From Defluviitaleaceae bacterium (GTDB lineage Bacteria > Bacillota > Clostridia > Lachnospirales > WRAX01), in contig WRAX01000005.1 of the NCBI GenBank assembly GCA_009779935.1, forward strand, positions 24,248-88,247: a stretch of DNA of 64,000 nucleotides, given 5' to 3'. Below are positions 22,669 through 31,889 of this stretch, piece after piece. Each line of letters begins with the position of its first letter. The stretch's first letter is position 1. Below the pieces are notes generated by a model. The model did not search any database. It was given only the letters and a program-made list of their open reading frames with translations, and was not told the DNA's origin. The position numbers and the translations under genes were made by a program.

Positions 22669-23340
22669 ATGAGGTTTAAAAATAGGATTTTTGCAGGTGT
22701 TTTTGCAGCGGCGATGGCTTTTTCTTCGGTATCTGCATTTGCCGCAGATGCAAATGAACAAATCGGTTTTGAAACTAACTATTCGCTGGTCAACAAGGTT
22801 GCTTCCATTACTGATGCGTGCATTGTTATAGTGAGCAGTCTGAATGGGGCAGAAGTTAATCCATTCATCCACAACCAGATTAAAGTAAGTATACAGACGG
22901 GAGATGCTTCGCATGCAATTGATATAATGGCTCAGCATGGTCTTGCACTTACTGTTAAAACGCCTGTGAATGCACATGGCGTAGATACCAGATTGTTTCC
23001 GGAGGAAATTTTTGACATAACACAATCATCCTTTCATCAATTTAGATATAATAACAATCCTCGATATGGTGCTGATGTATCCGTTATTACTCACGGGAGA
23101 GTGAGGGTTGATGGGAATGGTTTTGTACACGGGATTGGATTCCCATCTGTTAGCTTCAATGCAACCCAAACGTTCGGATTTAGGACAGAATTTTCGAATG
23201 TTTCTGCTGGATGGCAGGGTTCTGGCGGCAGAAGTATAAGCGTGACAGGTAGCTTTAGAACAACGATAGTTGCGTCCTTTGTTATAGGTGCTACTGGAGT
23301 GGAATTTGCACCAAGAAGCTTTAATCACAGGAAATTTTAG
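22669..23340 (+). CDS. secreted hypothetical protein (paralogue B)
   Basis: Signal peptide MRFKNRIFAGVFAAAMAFSSVSAFA; SAGWQGSGGR motif shared with paralogue A; RBS AAGGAGG. Confidence 0.65.
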   Translation: MRFKNRIFAGVFAAAMAFSSVSAFAADANEQIGFETNYSLVNKVASITDACIVIVSSLNGAEVNPFIHNQIKVSIQTGDASHAIDIMAQHGLALTVKTPVNAHGVDTRLFPEEIFDITQSSFHQFRYNNNPRYGADVSVITHGRVRVDGNGFVHGIGFPSVSFNATQTFGFRTEFSNVSAGWQGSGGRSISVTGSFRTTIVASFVIGATGVEFAPRSFNHRKF

Positions 23341-23348
23341 TAACACCC

Positions 23349-23388
23349 AAAACATCAACCACGATAATGCGTGGTTGATGTTTTGGAA
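23349..23388 (+). terminator. terminator after 22669 gene
   Basis: 15-bp arms AAAACATCAACCACG/CGTGGTTGATGTTTT. Confidence 0.65.
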
Positions 23389-23506
23389 TTTATGCGGAGG
23401 TGACTAACTATCAAAAGTCAAGCCTTTTTTCAAAAATATTTTAAGTCAAAAAAGAGCATAGCAAACAAGCCTCCCAAGGAAGCCGGTTTTTAAGTCGGAC
23501 TAAATG

Positions 23507-24673
23507 CTATCTAAGAGCTTCGGGGTCAAACATAATACCTTTAGTTTCTAACGCATAAATCAACCGCACTAACTTCTTGGCGACATGACTTGTGGCAACA
23601 TCATAAGGCTTACCCTCAGCCATCTTTTTTCTAAAGTAAACGGCGAAGGTTTCGTTATGTAAACGAATGGCACGAGCGCAGTTCATCAGCGCATTGCGTA
23701 GATGAGAAGAGCCGCGCTTAACCATGCGTCCTTTATATTCGGTAGTGCCTGATTGAAAATGCCCCGGTTCAAGGCCTGCAAATGAAAGCATTTTGTTTGG
23801 GCTATCGAAACGACTAAAGTCGCCAAACTCCGAAACAATGATGGCAGCAGAAACAGCCCCTATGCCTTTGATGGACAAAGTGGGCGGATTTAGCTCTGTG
23901 ATTATTTCGGTGATACGGATTTCAAGCTCTTCGATTTTTGCATCGATTTGACTATGTAAATTAAGCAGAGTTTCAAGTTCGATGCGATGACACTCGCTAA
24001 AAACTCCGACAGTATCTTTAGCCAGAGATTTTAACCTAATAAACTTGTCCATAGAAAAATGGCCTCGTGATTTACGGCGAAGAATGTCATATGAACGGGA
24101 GTTCATGTTAGCGATGGCATCAGGTGACGGATAGTTAGCAAGAATATACAATGCCGTCACTGAAAACTTGTTGTTAAAAAGTGACTTAAACTCAGGAAAG
24201 ATGCAGTCAAGAACATTCGTCAACTGAATCAAATAACGGCTTCTGCCCTTAACCAAGCTGCTTCTAAGTCGTGTTAGCTGCTTTAAGGCAAATCTGGGAT
24301 AGAACGCAGTGGGATGTTGTCGATATTCTTTTGAAGCGACATAATCAGCAATAGCTCTTGCGTCCAACTTGTCCGTTTTGGTTTTACGCAAAGTATTGCT
24401 TCTGATGTGCTTGCTGATGAGAAGCGGATTGATTTCCATAAAATCAAAACCAATTTTCTCAAGAAACAACTTCAAGTTAATGCCATAGTTACCCGTTGCT
24501 TCAAGCCCGATACGAATGTTGCCAGTCCCGTATTTCTCTAATTCAGCTTGAAGCAACCCAAACCCTTGGGCGGTGTTGGCAAACGAGAAACCAGCGTTAA
24601 TCACATCACCAAAGTTGGTTTGAATAAAACAGTCATGTTTGTACTTTGAAACGTCAATACCGGCATAATACAT
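23507..24673 (-). CDS. IS110-family transposase/recombinase
   Basis: N-terminal YAGIDVSKYKHD (DEDD domain) and C-terminal LSIKGIGAVSAAIIVSEFGDFSRF...FAGLEPGHFQSG (Transposase_20-like); ATG at 24673. Confidence 0.9.
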   Translation of the reverse strand: MYYAGIDVSKYKHDCFIQTNFGDVINAGFSFANTAQGFGLLQAELEKYGTGNIRIGLEATGNYGINLKLFLEKIGFDFMEINPLLISKHIRSNTLRKTKTDKLDARAIADYVASKEYRQHPTAFYPRFALKQLTRLRSSLVKGRSRYLIQLTNVLDCIFPEFKSLFNNKFSVTALYILANYPSPDAIANMNSRSYDILRRKSRGHFSMDKFIRLKSLAKDTVGVFSECHRIELETLLNLHSQIDAKIEELEIRITEIITELNPPTLSIKGIGAVSAAIIVSEFGDFSRFDSPNKMLSFAGLEPGHFQSGTTEYKGRMVKRGSSHLRNALMNCARAIRLHNETFAVYFRKKMAEGKPYDVATSHVAKKLVRLIYALETKGIMFDPEALR

Positions 24674-24703
24674 CGGCATACCTCCAAATAATTTATTTGG
24701 CAC

Positions 24704-24890
24704 TTAATCGGTCTGCCGCAGGTCATCTGCCAATGTATTCACGTAAATAAAGCGTCTTTGTGCCATAAAATATGCAACATCGCGCTAACTAACTTATCAA
24801 CAATTAAGACAGAGCCTACGGTTTGAGTCACCTCCAAACAGTCAAGCTGTAGAACAATTGGACAAATCCGCAGTGCCTTGTCTATTATAA
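24704..24890 (-). ncRNA. candidate IS110 bridge (seek) RNA in the 5' non-coding end
   Basis: About 190-nt non-coding stretch between a TATAAT (minus strand, + coords 24884-24889) and the transposase start; holds 8-10-nt matches to the opposite IS end. Confidence 0.35.
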
Positions 24891-25156
24891 CAAGCAGGTA
24901 GCTACTCCTGCTCGGTATAACCGAAAAATATTATGAAAGGGGAAATATAATGGAGCTATCCCTGGAAAAGGAATAACTCCATTATACGTGATTCGATATC
25001 ATACATATAGAATTAAATAATTTCACAGGCACGCTTATAATAGTTTGGGAGGCAATTTTTGCCACATTATTACTCCATTGGGGAGTTCATATCGGTGTTA
25101 AAAGTTTTACAAATAAAGTAAAATGGCTATGCACCGCTGGTTTTTTTGCACTTTAC

Positions 25157-30214: not shown

Positions 30215-31549
30215 ATGAAAACGATTTTGTTGACATTTGCTTTATTTTTTTCGATGGCGGGCATTGCCCCTGTTAGCGTAGAAACCTTGGATGGACAAGC
30301 CCGAAGGCAAGCTGTGATGGAAGCCAATTTGGAAGAATGGACAATTCTTTTCTTGTCGTGGGAAGTTTTTGATGAGGAAAATTTCCAAGCCCCACCCCGT
30401 TTGATGGTGGAGTTTTTAGCAGAATCTTTTACGGATATGTATGCGGATGATTTTGGATTTAACCTACCCGCATTAATACAAGAAGCGGGGTACCCCGCAG
30501 AGCTTTTTGTGGATTATATGCTGGAAATAATGACCCATCCCGAATATGCAAGGATTTATATACAGGCATTTGGCATAGCGTGGGTAGAGCGGGCCATTGC
30601 AATGATGCTGGATGACTTGATGGAAATTTATCAAATTGGCGGGCCGGAATATCTTGTGCCTTTTTTTAGCTATATGCAGGTGTTTTATGTGGGCACAGAA
30701 ATGCAGGCCCCGCCCCGCCCTGTGTGGCATTTTACACCACCCACCCGTGAAGAAGTGGAAGACGCACTAAACACCGCCCTTGCCCGCCATGGTGTAGATT
30801 TGGCGGGCTATCTATACACCACCCGTGGACATTCTTTGGAATATTTTATGGATTATTTTATGGATTATTTGATGTGGCTTATTGACTATGATGGCCAATT
30901 GTTTGCCATGGCTTATGGCCACAACTGGCTTGCCCAACTAATGGACGAAATTGTTGGGGAAATTGTGGAATTTCAGGATATGTGGGTGGTAAGCATCGTT
31001 TCTTCTGCCGTAAAAGTTTTGGGTGTGGAGGATGCTATTTACTTCGTATTACAGCTTTTTGACTTAGTTTGGAGCGATGAGCATTTTGACGCCATATACA
31101 CCAACCCATATCTGGAAGAGATTTTGGCAGATTTTACCGTGATGGATGAAGCCTTTCTTAGCAGGCTGTTAAACATGCCCTTGCAAGAAAGGCCAAGCAA
31201 TGCCGTTTTATCAACCATAACACAGGATGATTTGGAGGTGCGCCACAGCTTTTCCCCAATATCCGTCCCCATGTTTCTTTTTGAAGGGCATGTGTATGGG
31301 GCGGCGATGAATGTGTTTTTTCGCAATGAAAGCGAAAGTGCCGCACACATCAACTTGCTGATTATGGATGAGGCAGGCAACAGCCAAGGTATTGAAGAGG
31401 TTGTAGATGCAGGCAGTGATTTTGTGCTCCAACTGCCTGTCGGATGGCACTTGGTGGCGGCAATTATAATACCCACCCAAGGTGATTTTGATGGCAAAAT
31501 TGCAGGCGAATTTGCTTTTCGCTTTACCCATGGCTCTATTAACCAATAA
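30215..31549 (+). CDS. secreted acidic hypothetical protein
   Basis: 444 aa; signal peptide MKTILLTFALFFSMAGIAPVSV; internal YFMDYFMDYLMW tandem; RBS GGGAGG. Confidence 0.6.
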   Translation: MKTILLTFALFFSMAGIAPVSVETLDGQARRQAVMEANLEEWTILFLSWEVFDEENFQAPPRLMVEFLAESFTDMYADDFGFNLPALIQEAGYPAELFVDYMLEIMTHPEYARIYIQAFGIAWVERAIAMMLDDLMEIYQIGGPEYLVPFFSYMQVFYVGTEMQAPPRPVWHFTPPTREEVEDALNTALARHGVDLAGYLYTTRGHSLEYFMDYFMDYLMWLIDYDGQLFAMAYGHNWLAQLMDEIVGEIVEFQDMWVVSIVSSAVKVLGVEDAIYFVLQLFDLVWSDEHFDAIYTNPYLEEILADFTVMDEAFLSRLLNMPLQERPSNAVLSTITQDDLEVRHSFSPISVPMFLFEGHVYGAAMNVFFRNESESAAHINLLIMDEAGNSQGIEEVVDAGSDFVLQLPVGWHLVAAIIIPTQGDFDGKIAGEFAFRFTHGSINQ

Positions 31550-31561
31550 AGCCAAATACAA

Positions 31562-31610
31562 AACACCATTACGGGGTTTGTCCGTCCCGCAATGGTGTTT
31601 TATATTTTTT
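31562..31610 (+). terminator. terminator; last core feature before the AT-rich island
   Basis: Arms AACACCATT-CGGG/CCCG-AATGGTGTT then T-rich tract. Confidence 0.6.
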
Positions 31611-31625
31611 GTAATTATCCCGTTA

Positions 31626-31889
31626 ATGGAGAAATTTCCAACCGAGAAAAAGATCGTTGCCCATTTTTTGACTATTCGCTATCCAGATGATGTAACTTGC
31701 AATTATTGTGGCCCTACAAAATTATATCCACTTAACAAAAGTATCAAGGTATTTAGGTGTAATGGTTGTACAAATAGCTTCTCCCCTCTCTTTGAAAAAT
31801 CATCAACAGACTTGCGTGAGTGGTTTTATGCCATATACCTATTTCTAAACGGTAAAAGGGGCGTTTCTGGCTTGCCAAATACAAAGTGA
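31626..31889 (+). pseudogene. IS1595-family transposase, N-terminal zinc-ribbon fragment only
   Basis: MEKFPTEKKIVAHFLTIRYPDDVTCNYCG...FRCNGCTNSFSPL...LREWFYAIYLFLNGKRGVS matches the IS1595 N-terminal pattern; the DDE domain is absent. Confidence 0.7.

What the first reader, a model, noticed from the sequence alone, without database searches (positions are those of the whole stretch)
23395..24915. IS110-family element with candidate bridge RNA: 5' non-coding region matches both strands of the opposite IS end
Seen (element orientation is the minus strand): about 190 nt of non-coding DNA lie between a TATAAT (+ coords 24884-24889) and the transposase ATG. It contains GCTTGACTGTTTGGAGGTGACT (+ coords 24827-24848). 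The other end of the element reads GCTTGACTTTTGATAGTTAGTCACCTCC (+ coords 23397-23424). GCTTGACT is thus repeated directly, and GGAGGTGACT is the exact reverse complement of AGTCACCTCC. The far end also supplies a TTGACT that could act as a -35 for the TATAAT after circularisation. Established: IS110/IS621 recombinases use a bridge RNA from the 5' non-coding end. Its loops pair with both strands of the donor ends and the target, and a junction promoter forms on the circle. Inference: these matches are the donor-binding guides.
Basis: partly seen in the sequence, partly recalled or inferred. Interest (0 to 1): 0.55.

Follow-up and report, generated by a model that had tools for sequence, protein, structure and literature searches.

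The report
IS110 element with its bridge RNA

Summary
The element is real. It is an IS110-group insertion sequence on the minus strand, about 1588 bp (24990 to 23401). It encodes a 388-aa DEDD/Ser recombinase and, by inference, a 179-nt RNA (24877-24699) in its left non-coding end.

Seventy-nine relatives share a two-arm RNA fold with compensatory changes. Three guide segments covary with the DNA they should read, laid out as published for IS621.

However, it is the right target guide plus handshake bases of the target-binding loop. It reads the last bases of the right end, the core CA and 5 nt of flanking host DNA. It is not a donor guide. The donor guides lie at 24794-24788 and 24747-24740.

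The GCTTGACT repeat is at chance level. On the circle, TTGACT sits 17 nt from the terminal TATAAT (24986-24981), not the internal one. The internal TATAAT is a conserved extended -10.

The family inserts between a Shine-Dalgarno sequence and its start codon, like IS900. The window copy matches only the right half-site. RNA expression and activity are untested.

The parts
23401..24990 (-). IS110-group insertion sequence including both flanking copies of the core CA. The element is 1588 bp with one core copy. The left non-coding end is 315 nt and the right one 104 nt.
   Evidence: Conservation among relatives starts at CAC|GTATAAT and stops at ...TAGTCAC|CTCC. Element lengths in relatives are about 1550-1650 bp.
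24989..24990 (-). Left copy of the core dinucleotide CA. The crossover point is ambiguous within TCAC.
   Evidence: TCAC occurs at both junctions. In L004 and L153 the third base differs between the left copy (CTT) and the right copy (CTC). The right donor guide and the right target guide track those two bases separately, so the shared core is the first two bases.
23401..23402 (-). Right copy of the core dinucleotide CA.
   Evidence: Same evidence as for the left copy.
23507..24673 (-). Recombinase gene, 388 aa, with catalytic residues D7, E58, D101, D104 and S308.
   Evidence: Pfam PF01548 (E 2.8e-33) and PF02371 (E 9.9e-23). Matches to PDB 8wt6 IS621 (E 7.6e-18) and 9t56 ISCro4 (E 7.5e-19), with the motifs aligned. 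GGAGG lies 7 nt before the ATG.
24699..24877 (-). Predicted bridge RNA, 179 nt. A closing stem (GGCA 24877-24874 with UGCC 24702-24699) encloses a target-binding arm and a donor-binding arm.
   Evidence: In alignment A1 of 79 relatives, 92% of cells are paired against 30-41% in slid controls. Twelve pairs show compensatory changes. The 5' end is inferred from the promoter position.
24851..24862 (-). 5' side of the target-binding loop (UCCAAUUGUUCU). It is the left target guide by position.
   Evidence: Position is analogous to IS621 (PMC11208160). Same-sense concordance with left flanks is weak but above permutation, z about 4.4. In the window copy only about 3 of 9 positions match.
24829..24835 (-). 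Right target guide GGAGGUG. It pairs with the top strand CA+CCTCC (23402-23396).
   Evidence: Watson-Crick pairing in 51 to 75 of 75 loci at each position. Position 1 shows G-C, A-T, C-G and T-A. Permutation z = 12.5.
24827..24828 (-). Handshake bases AC of the target-binding loop. They pair with the last two right-end bases GT (23404-23403).
   Evidence: Paired in 75 of 75 loci. L093 has compensating changes: GTGTC in the RNA and GACAC in the right end. The handshake concept is from PMC11208158.
24838..24850 (-). Apical hairpin of the target arm (ACAG-CUUGA-CUGU).
   Evidence: The middle pair is A-U in 39, G-C in 20 and G-U in 20 sequences. The loop sequence varies among relatives.
24788..24794 (-). 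Left donor guide AGUUAGU. It is identical to the right-end top strand 23409-23403, so it pairs with the bottom strand.
   Evidence: The variants AGCTGGT, AGCTAGT and AGTTGGT change together in the RNA and the right end across relatives.
24740..24747 (-). Right donor guide UUUACGUG. It is complementary to the top strand CACGTATA (24990-24983) at 7 of 8 positions.
   Evidence: ACGUG, ACGAG and ACAAG in the RNA go with CACGT, CTCGT and CTTGT at the left junction.
24751..24786 (-). Apical hairpin of the donor arm (AGCG/CGCU) with a 25-nt inserted hairpin (24781-24757).
   Evidence: The stem is paired in 100% of cells with 10 double changes. Relatives carry different insertions at this loop.
24884..24892 (-). 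Internal extended -10 promoter TGtTATAAT, which would start the RNA near G24877.
   Evidence: TG and TATAAT are nearly invariant while the base between them varies. The simple scan missed it because there is no -35. Function is inferred.
24981..24986 (-). Terminal TATAAT, the -10 of the junction promoter formed on the circle.
   Evidence: Joining the ends gives TTGACT, 17 nt, TATAAT. In the relatives, 72 of 82 reconstructed junctions have 17-nt spacing.
23416..23421 (-). TTGACT in the right end, the -35 of the junction promoter.
   Evidence: Conserved at a fixed distance from the right end.
24946..24986 (-). Left-end hairpin 1 (18-bp arms) followed by a U-rich tract. It is a possible barrier to transcription reading in from outside.
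   Evidence: Inverted repeat I4. Fourteen pairs, seven with compensatory changes, and many G-U pairs, so the structure is strand-specific. The role is inferred.
24884..24921 (-). Left-end hairpin 2. Its 3' arm holds the internal -10.
   Evidence: Twelve pairs predicted, with compensatory changes at the base of the loop.
23396..23400 (-). Right half of the target (CCTCC). This is host DNA, the complement of a GGAGG Shine-Dalgarno-like motif.
   Evidence: It varies among insertion sites and tracks the right target guide.
23468..23484 (-). Terminator-like hairpin after the recombinase gene.
   Evidence: Found by the pattern scan and conserved in relatives.
24716..24721 (-). Second copy of CUGCGG. 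It can pair with CCGUAG (24821-24816) in place of the first copy (24873-24868).
   Evidence: The alternative helix is 91% paired with 21 double changes. The minimum-free-energy fold of the window RNA uses it.

Best explanation
The locus is an intact IS110-group insertion sequence on the minus strand (24990 to 23401). It works like IS621. A DEDD/Ser recombinase (23507-24673) is guided by a roughly 179-nt RNA encoded in the long left end (24877-24699). The RNA has a closing stem and two arms, each with a large internal loop.

Loop 1 is the target-binding loop:
- Its 5' side (24862-24851) is the left target guide.
- Its 3' side, GGAGGUG (24835-24829), is the right target guide. [quoted passage not shown]
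- The next two bases, AC, are handshake bases that pair with the last two bases of the right end after strand exchange.
- Together these explain why the integrated right junction AGTCACCTCC is a perfect complement of the RNA.

Loop 2 is the donor-binding loop:
- AGUUAGU (24794-24788) matches the right end.
- UUUACGUG (24747-24740) is complementary to the start of the left end.

Excision to a circle joins TTGACT (right end) to TATAAT (left end) at 17 nt, forming a promoter. A second, internal extended -10 could express the RNA and the recombinase from the integrated copy.

The family's natural target is a Shine-Dalgarno sequence and the spacer before a start codon.

Shown here: the fold, the guide-DNA covariation, the catalytic residues and the promoter geometry. 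Inferred: transcription, the RNA ends and recombination activity.
For: Protein:
- Pfam DEDD_Tnp_IS110 and Transposase_20.
- Matches to the solved IS621 and ISCro4 transposases, with D7, E58, D101, D104 and S308 aligned to the catalytic residues.

Ends:
- Conservation boundaries were defined from 160 related loci.

Fold:
- 36 pairs, 92% paired against 30-41% in slid controls, and 12 pairs with compensatory changes.

Guides:
- Right target guide against the right end plus flank: 51-75 of 75 Watson-Crick pairs per position, all four pair types at position 1, z = 12.5.
- Left and right donor guides covary with the right and left ends.
- Left target guide against the left flank: above permutation, z about 4.4.

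Promoter:
- The junction promoter has 17-nt spacing in 72 of 82 relatives.

Target:
- 56 of 69 left flanks have CAT 3-10 nt from the core, against 13 of 66 in a control window.
- 42 of 45 testable flanks are open for at least 60 codons from that ATG.

Published model: the strand rules, the core included in all four pairings, the handshake bases and the excision-made promoter come from PMC11208160 and PMC11208158.
Against: - No Rfam family matches.
- The window RNA alone does not fold better than shuffles (z = -0.37 and -0.95). Its minimum-free-energy fold uses an alternative helix that opens the target arm.
- The left target guide matches the window's own left flank at about 3 of 9 positions.
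- Family-wide concordance for the left target guide is weak, and the register is smeared over 1-3 nt.
- The left guides end in U followed by an A that starts the apical stem. This does not change when the core changes from CA to CT, so left-guide pairing with the core is not demonstrated.
- No empty site, no second identical copy and no circle junction were found.
- No expression data are available.
Confidence: 0.85

Rival explanations
1. The element spans 23395-24915. GCTTGACT and GGAGGTGACT are the two donor-binding guides that read both strands of the right end. The far-end TTGACT becomes the -35 for the TATAAT at 24884-24889 on the circle.
For: Both motifs are present. Six of the ten complementary bases (AGTCAC) do lie in the right end and core.
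Against: - GCTTGACT is at chance level, and the RNA copy is a variable hairpin loop.
- The four flank bases CTCC differ between insertion sites and covary with the RNA, so the segment reads target DNA.
- Separate segments covary with the right and left ends.
- The left end extends to 24990. On the circle, TTGACT is therefore about 115 nt from the 24884-24889 box but exactly 17 nt from the 24981-24986 box.
Confidence: 0.05
2. The element is a fixed, no longer mobile copy. The architecture is that of a bridge-RNA element, but at this site it is a relic that inserted off-target or drifted, and it does not transpose now.
For: - The same insertion, identical in sequence, is present in four public assemblies.
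- The left flank matches the left target guide poorly, and there is no start codon or ORF on that side, unlike 56 of 69 relatives.
- No other identical copy was found.
Against: - The ORF is intact and all five catalytic residues are present.
- The guides, both ends and both promoters match the family consensus.
- A 94%-identical sister copy lies on another contig of the same sample.
- Two short assemblies break inside the element, as repeats do.
- Off-target and half-match insertions are documented for IS621 (PMC11208160; bioRxiv 10.64898/2026.08.31.748434).
Confidence: 0.25
3. The GGAGGTGA in the leader is simply a Shine-Dalgarno-like sequence, or the leader is only a cis-regulatory 5' UTR of the recombinase mRNA. 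The match to the right junction would then arise because the element happens to sit next to a host ribosome-binding site.
For: GGAGGTGA is a perfect Shine-Dalgarno sequence. The host flank CCTCC is the complement of one. There is no terminator between the RNA and the recombinase gene.
Against: - No start codon follows the motif.
- The motif sits in a conserved internal loop.
- Its first three bases covary in trans with flanks 1.4 kb away through all four pair types.
- Its sixth base switches T to A exactly when the core switches from CAC to CTC (75 of 75 loci).
Confidence: 0.03

Closest known systems
IS621 and the IS110-group bridge-RNA elements (Durrant et al. 2024, PMC11208160; Hiraizumi et al. 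2024, PMC11208158)
   Same: - DEDD/Ser recombinase.
- Long left end encoding an RNA of about 180 nt with two internal loops.
- Left guides have the sense of the top strand; right guides are complementary to it.
- Core dinucleotide at both junctions.
- Two handshake bases 3' of the right target guide, matching the last two donor bases.
- ATA...TAT flanking the donor.
- A promoter created at the right-end/left-end junction.
   Different: - The recombinase is only distantly related by sequence (E about 1e-18, two local stretches).
- The core is CA (CT in a sister clade) rather than CT.
- The right target guide is longer (2 core + 5 nt).
- The left end is 315 nt and carries two extra covarying hairpins and a second, internal extended -10 upstream of the RNA.
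- A closing stem encloses both arms, and a duplicated strand allows an alternative helix.
- The target is a ribosome-binding site. From my own recollection, not checked here, IS621 targets a repetitive extragenic palindrome.
IS900 of Mycobacterium avium subsp. paratuberculosis (IS110 family)
   Same: The target type is the same. The published IS900 motif is CATGNNNNNNTCTCCTT (PMC8141618): a reverse-complemented start codon, a spacer, then the complement of a Shine-Dalgarno sequence. Here the motif is CAT-N5-7-CA-CCTCC, and it is TCTCCTT in the sister clade whose guide is AAGGAGAC.
   Different: The hosts are unrelated. No long ORF lies on the complementary strand here, whereas IS900 has the hed ORF (PMC8141618). 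Homology to IS900 was not tested here.
ISEc21 and IS1111-type seekRNA elements (Siddiquee et al. 2024, PMC11187229)
   Same: The non-coding region lies upstream of the transposase in the IS110 type. The RNA carries short matches to both strands of the target. There is a circular intermediate with a junction promoter, and no target duplication.
   Different: IS1111-type elements carry the RNA downstream of the gene and have longer subterminal inverted repeats. That is not the arrangement here.

Membership tests
IS110 family, IS110 group (bridge-RNA elements) | Recombinase with an N-terminal DEDD RuvC-like domain and a C-terminal Tnp domain with a catalytic serine | tested here: met
   PF01548 and PF02371. 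Aligned to IS621 8wt6 and ISCro4 9t56. D7, E58, D101, D104 and S308 are present.
IS110 family, IS110 group (bridge-RNA elements) | No terminal inverted repeats and no target duplication; the same core dinucleotide on both sides | tested here: met
   The ends CGTATAAT... and ...GTTAGT are not inverted repeats. CA (within TCAC) is at both junctions. No empty site was available to prove that there is no duplication.
IS110 family, IS110 group (bridge-RNA elements) | Long non-coding left end upstream of the gene and a short right end | tested here: met
   The left end is 315 nt and the right end 104 nt.
IS110 family, IS110 group (bridge-RNA elements) | A non-coding RNA with two stem-loops that each carry a large internal loop | tested here: met
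   A covariation-supported fold in 79 relatives. The window sequence alone is not thermodynamically distinctive.
IS110 family, IS110 group (bridge-RNA elements) | Right target guide complementary to the top strand of core plus right target | tested here: met
   covariation with flanks, z = 12.5. The window copy matches 7 of 7, plus the handshake bases.
IS110 family, IS110 group (bridge-RNA elements) | Left target guide with the sense of the left target (pairs with the bottom strand) | tested here: inconclusive
   Family-wide excess over permutation is z about 4.4, but the match is weak and the register is smeared. The window copy matches about 3 of 9. One element sits at five sites with different left targets.
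IS110 family, IS110 group (bridge-RNA elements) | Donor-binding loop: left donor guide with the sense of the right end, and right donor guide complementary to the start of the left end | tested here: met
   four right-end variants and three left-junction variants change together with the RNA.
IS110 family, IS110 group (bridge-RNA elements) | Handshake bases 3' of the right target guide that pair with donor positions 6-7 | tested here: met
   AC pairs with GT in 75 of 75 loci, with one compensated variant in L093.
IS110 family, IS110 group (bridge-RNA elements) | A sigma-70 promoter reconstituted at the right-end/left-end junction of the circle | tested here: met
   At sequence level only: TTGACT, 17 nt, TATAAT in the window, and 17-nt spacing in 72 of 82 relatives. 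Activity was not tested.
IS110 family, IS110 group (bridge-RNA elements) | Short subterminal inverted repeat ATA...TAT flanking the programmable donor | tested here: met
   ATA at 23411-23409 and TAT at 24986-24984, 10 nt apart across the junction. The feature is described in PMC11208160.
IS110 family, IS110 group (bridge-RNA elements) | The RNA is expressed, binds the recombinase and is required for recombination | not testable with these tools
   There are no expression or biochemical data.
IS110 family, IS110 group (bridge-RNA elements) | Match to the published bridge-RNA covariance model | not testable with these tools
   Nothing in Rfam 15 reached a family's gathering score, either at the locus or across the window. 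The authors' model is not available here.
IS1111 group | RNA encoded downstream of the gene in a long right end, with 7-17-bp subterminal inverted repeats | tested here: not met
   The right end is 104 nt and holds only a terminator and the -35. The structured RNA is upstream of the gene.

The most novel reading that the evidence does not exclude
This clade may be a bridge-RNA element that targets by half-site. A nearly fixed right target guide, which is itself a perfect Shine-Dalgarno sequence (GGAGGUGA, the complement of the 16S rRNA 3' tail), would read the ribosome-binding sites of many genes. The left target guide would be only loosely enforced. The element could then land between Shine-Dalgarno sequence and start codon in front of many different genes instead of at one cognate site. 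A conserved pair of mutually exclusive helices (two CUGYGG strands competing for one CCRCAG strand) may gate formation of the target-binding arm.
Probability: 0.25. Interest if true: 0.5.

Novelty: new member of a known kind. Interest (0 to 1): 0.3.

Why it matters
The locus adds a well-resolved, naturally diverse clade to the bridge-RNA recombinases. The relatives here are mostly from Bacillota and gut metagenomes, at 50-94% protein identity to the window's recombinase. Every guide segment can be mapped to base resolution from comparative data alone.

Three features could inform guide design and regulation of bridge recombinases:
- a long right target guide combined with a loosely matched left guide;
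- an internal promoter in addition to the junction promoter;
- a possible alternative helix.

The biology (an IS110 element with a bridge RNA, and a ribosome-binding-site target like that of IS900) is already established, so this is an annotation-level result rather than a discovery.

Tried and rejected
- Rfam search of the locus (permissive) and of the whole window (gathering threshold) gave no relevant family.
- Folding the window RNA alone gave an uninformative z-score.
- A megablast of the element against plasmids found nothing.
- Exact-protein look-ups of the recombinase with three start choices found nothing on record. The first query began one codon off.
- I looked for an empty site through the two neighbouring genes. 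All four public contigs carry the identical insertion, and two of them break inside it.
- I looked for a circle junction among 180 loci. There was only one imperfect hit, L146.
- I searched the window for the cognate target predicted from the left guide (CCAATTGTTCYACCTCC). The only hit was the guide itself.
- I tried to fix the register of the left target guide by offset scans and a position-by-position matrix. The signal is spread over offsets 1-3 and was not resolved.
- A literature search for the older IS900 consensus (CNCCTT) found nothing in the held library. The motif in PMC8141618 was used instead.
- I considered that UA at the end of both left guides pairs with the core. I rejected this as unproven, because it does not change in the CT-core clade.
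Full report
**Observation**

On the minus strand the region reads TATAAT (24889-24884), then GCTTGACTGTTTGGAGGTGACT (24847-26), the ATG (24673), the stop codon (23507), and GCTTGACTTTTGATAGTTAGTCACCTCC (23423-23396).

The 10-nt complement GGAGGTGACT/AGTCACCTCC occurs twice in 64 kb against 0.04 expected. The 8-nt GCTTGACT repeat is at chance level: 1.1 expected, and 28 of 100 shuffles gave at least two.

**What the gene is**

The ORF 24673-23507 (388 aa; GGAGG lies 7 nt upstream of the ATG) carries Pfam DEDD_Tnp_IS110 and Transposase_20. It matches the solved IS621 and ISCro4 transposases. D7, E58, D101, D104 and S308 align to the IS621 catalytic residues (residue roles from PMC11208158).

**Relatives and true ends**

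- A protein search found thousands of relatives at up to 94% identity.
- 160 loci were fetched from genomes and metagenomes.
- Upstream conservation does not stop at 24915. It runs to CAC|GTATAATGG at 24990/24987.
- Downstream conservation stops at ...ATAGTTAGTCAC|CTCC.
- TCAC is present at both junctions.
- In L004 and L153 the third base differs between the left copy (CTT) and the right copy (CTC). Two different RNA segments track those two bases. The shared core is therefore the first two bases: CA in the window and CT in a sister clade.
- The element is 1588 bp, with a 315-nt left end and a 104-nt right end. Relatives measure about 1550-1650 bp.

**RNA fold**

Seventy-nine upstream regions align well (A1). 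RNAalifold found four helices:
- a closing stem (GGCA 24877-74 with UGCC 24702-699);
- a 10-bp stem for the first arm;
- that arm's apical hairpin;
- the apical hairpin of the second arm.

I added the basal stem of the second arm (CUGUC 24812-08 with GGCAG 24731-27) and counted all pairs. 92% of cells are paired against 30-41% when partners are slid. Twelve pairs have compensatory changes, in 120 cells. No shuffle out of 500 reached any of these measures. The middle helix of the second arm is weaker, at 77% paired.

Each arm carries a large internal loop. This is the architecture described for IS110 bridge RNAs (PMC11208160).

**Guides**

The published rules are as follows (PMC11208160, PMC11208158):
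- Left guides pair with the bottom strand, so they read like the top strand.
- Right guides pair with the top strand.
- The core takes part in all four pairings.
- Two handshake bases 3' of the right target guide pair with donor positions 6-7 after strand exchange.

The four guides here:

1. Right target guide, on the 3' side of loop 1. GGAGGUGAC is complementary to GTCAC+CTCC. Across 75 loci the nine positions are Watson-Crick in 51, 67, 72, 71, 74, 75, 75, 75 and 75 cases. Position 1 pairs with the fourth flank base as G-C (19 loci), T-A (15), A-T (9) and C-G (8). Position 6 switches T to A exactly with CAC to CTC. Permutation gives z = 12.5. So GGAGG reads host DNA (CCTCC), UG reads the core, and AC reads the last two right-end bases.

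2. Left donor guide, on the 5' side of loop 2. AGUUAGU equals the right end at 23409-03. The variants AGCTGGT, AGCTAGT and AGTTGGT change together in the RNA and the right end.

3. Right donor guide, on the 3' side of loop 2. UUUACGUG is complementary to CACGTATA at the left junction (7 of 8). ACGUG, ACGAG and ACAAG follow CAC, CTC and CTT.

4. Left target guide, on the 5' side of loop 1 (UCCAAUUGUUCU). The assignment rests on position. Same-sense matches to left flanks exceed permutation (z about 4.4), but they are weak and spread over registers 1-3. One element with a single guide (P0059) sits at five sites. Four share the right target CTCC and one has CTCT, while the left targets differ. 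The window copy matches about 3 of 9.

**Promoters and other left-end features**

- Joining the ends gives TTGACT (23421-16), 17 nt, TATAAT (24986-81). Seventy-two of 82 reconstructed junctions have 17-nt spacing. This is the excision-made promoter known for IS110 and IS1111 elements (PMC11208160, PMC11187229).
TG and TATAAT are nearly invariant while n varies. This is an extended -10 that would start transcription near G24877, the first base of the closing stem.
- Two covarying, strand-specific hairpins precede it. The first (24986-46) contains the junction -10 and is followed by a U-rich tract. The second (about 24921-24884) contains the internal -10. Their roles are inferred only.
- A terminator-like hairpin follows the gene.

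**Target biology**

Fifty-six of 69 distinct left flanks have CAT 3-10 nt from the core, against 13 of 66 in a control window. Forty-two of 45 testable flanks are open for at least 60 codons from that ATG. The family therefore inserts between a Shine-Dalgarno sequence (GGAGG or AAGGAG, on the right flank) and the start codon of a gene facing away from the recombinase. This is the IS900 target type, CATGNNNNNNTCTCCTT (PMC8141618).

The window copy is atypical. It lies 10 nt past the terminator of the upstream gene (hairpin 23347-23386), next to a GGAGGTGA with no start codon or ORF behind it. It matches only the right half-site. Off-target and half-match insertions are documented for IS621 (PMC11208160; bioRxiv 10.64898/2026.08.31.748434).

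**Context**

The locus is identical, with the insertion, in four public assemblies. A 94% sister element lies on another contig of one of these samples, next to an HTH gene called with a TTG start. No empty site, circle junction or second identical copy was found.

**Caveats**

- There are no expression or activity data.
- No curated RNA family is available to score against.
- The window RNA alone does not fold better than shuffles. Its minimum-free-energy fold uses an alternative helix formed by a second CUGCGG (24721-16). That helix is as well conserved as the first.

**Verdict**

This is a genuine IS110-group element with a bridge RNA, and a new member of a known kind. The boundaries, the guide assignment and the promoter pairing needed correction.

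Noticed in passing
window 24873-24868, 24821-24816 and 24721-24716 (minus strand): Two identical CUGCGG strands can each pair with the single CCGUAG strand. Both helices are conserved and share the same 21 double changes in relatives. The minimum-free-energy fold of the window RNA uses the downstream copy, which opens the target-binding arm. This may be a conformational switch or an RNA-RNA contact.
   Followed up: partly
window 24946-24986 and about 24884-24921 (minus strand): Two covarying hairpins rich in G-U pairs lie in the left end upstream of the predicted RNA. Each contains a TATAAT box (the junction -10 and the internal extended -10). Their function is unknown. Possibilities are a barrier to read-in transcription or a structure of a single-stranded circle.
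   Followed up: partly
window 24757-24781 (minus strand); L144:102-313: A 25-nt hairpin is inserted in the apical loop of the donor-binding arm. L144, whose recombinase is only 66% identical, has a similar insertion. Other relatives carry unrelated insertions of about 20 nt at the same loop.
   Followed up: no
window 24829-24835 (minus strand): The right target guide GGAGGUGA is itself a perfect Shine-Dalgarno sequence. From my own recollection, not checked here, it is the complement of the 16S rRNA 3' tail UCACCUCC, so the 3' end of 16S rRNA genes would contain the CA-CCTCC half-site.
   Followed up: no
window 23347-23386 (+ strand): A perfect 17-bp hairpin followed by a T-run, directly after ORF 22669-23340, looks like that gene's terminator. 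The element's right junction lies 10 nt beyond it.
   Followed up: no
L176 and L177 (short public contigs); window about 23534: Two independent assemblies of this locus break at the same base, about 135 nt inside the element. This is what happens where related repeat copies diverge in a metagenome.
   Followed up: no
L178:9455-9853, about window 31491-31889 (+ strand): A called 132-aa gene has a weak Zn_ribbon_IS1595 Pfam hit. It may be a remnant of another insertion sequence elsewhere in the window.
   Followed up: no
L161-L170 (relatives P0015 and P0059): Several insertions of related elements lie beside genes for conjugation or type IV secretion proteins (TrbL, PrgI, TraG/TrwB-like). This suggests these elements often ride on conjugative elements.
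   Followed up: no
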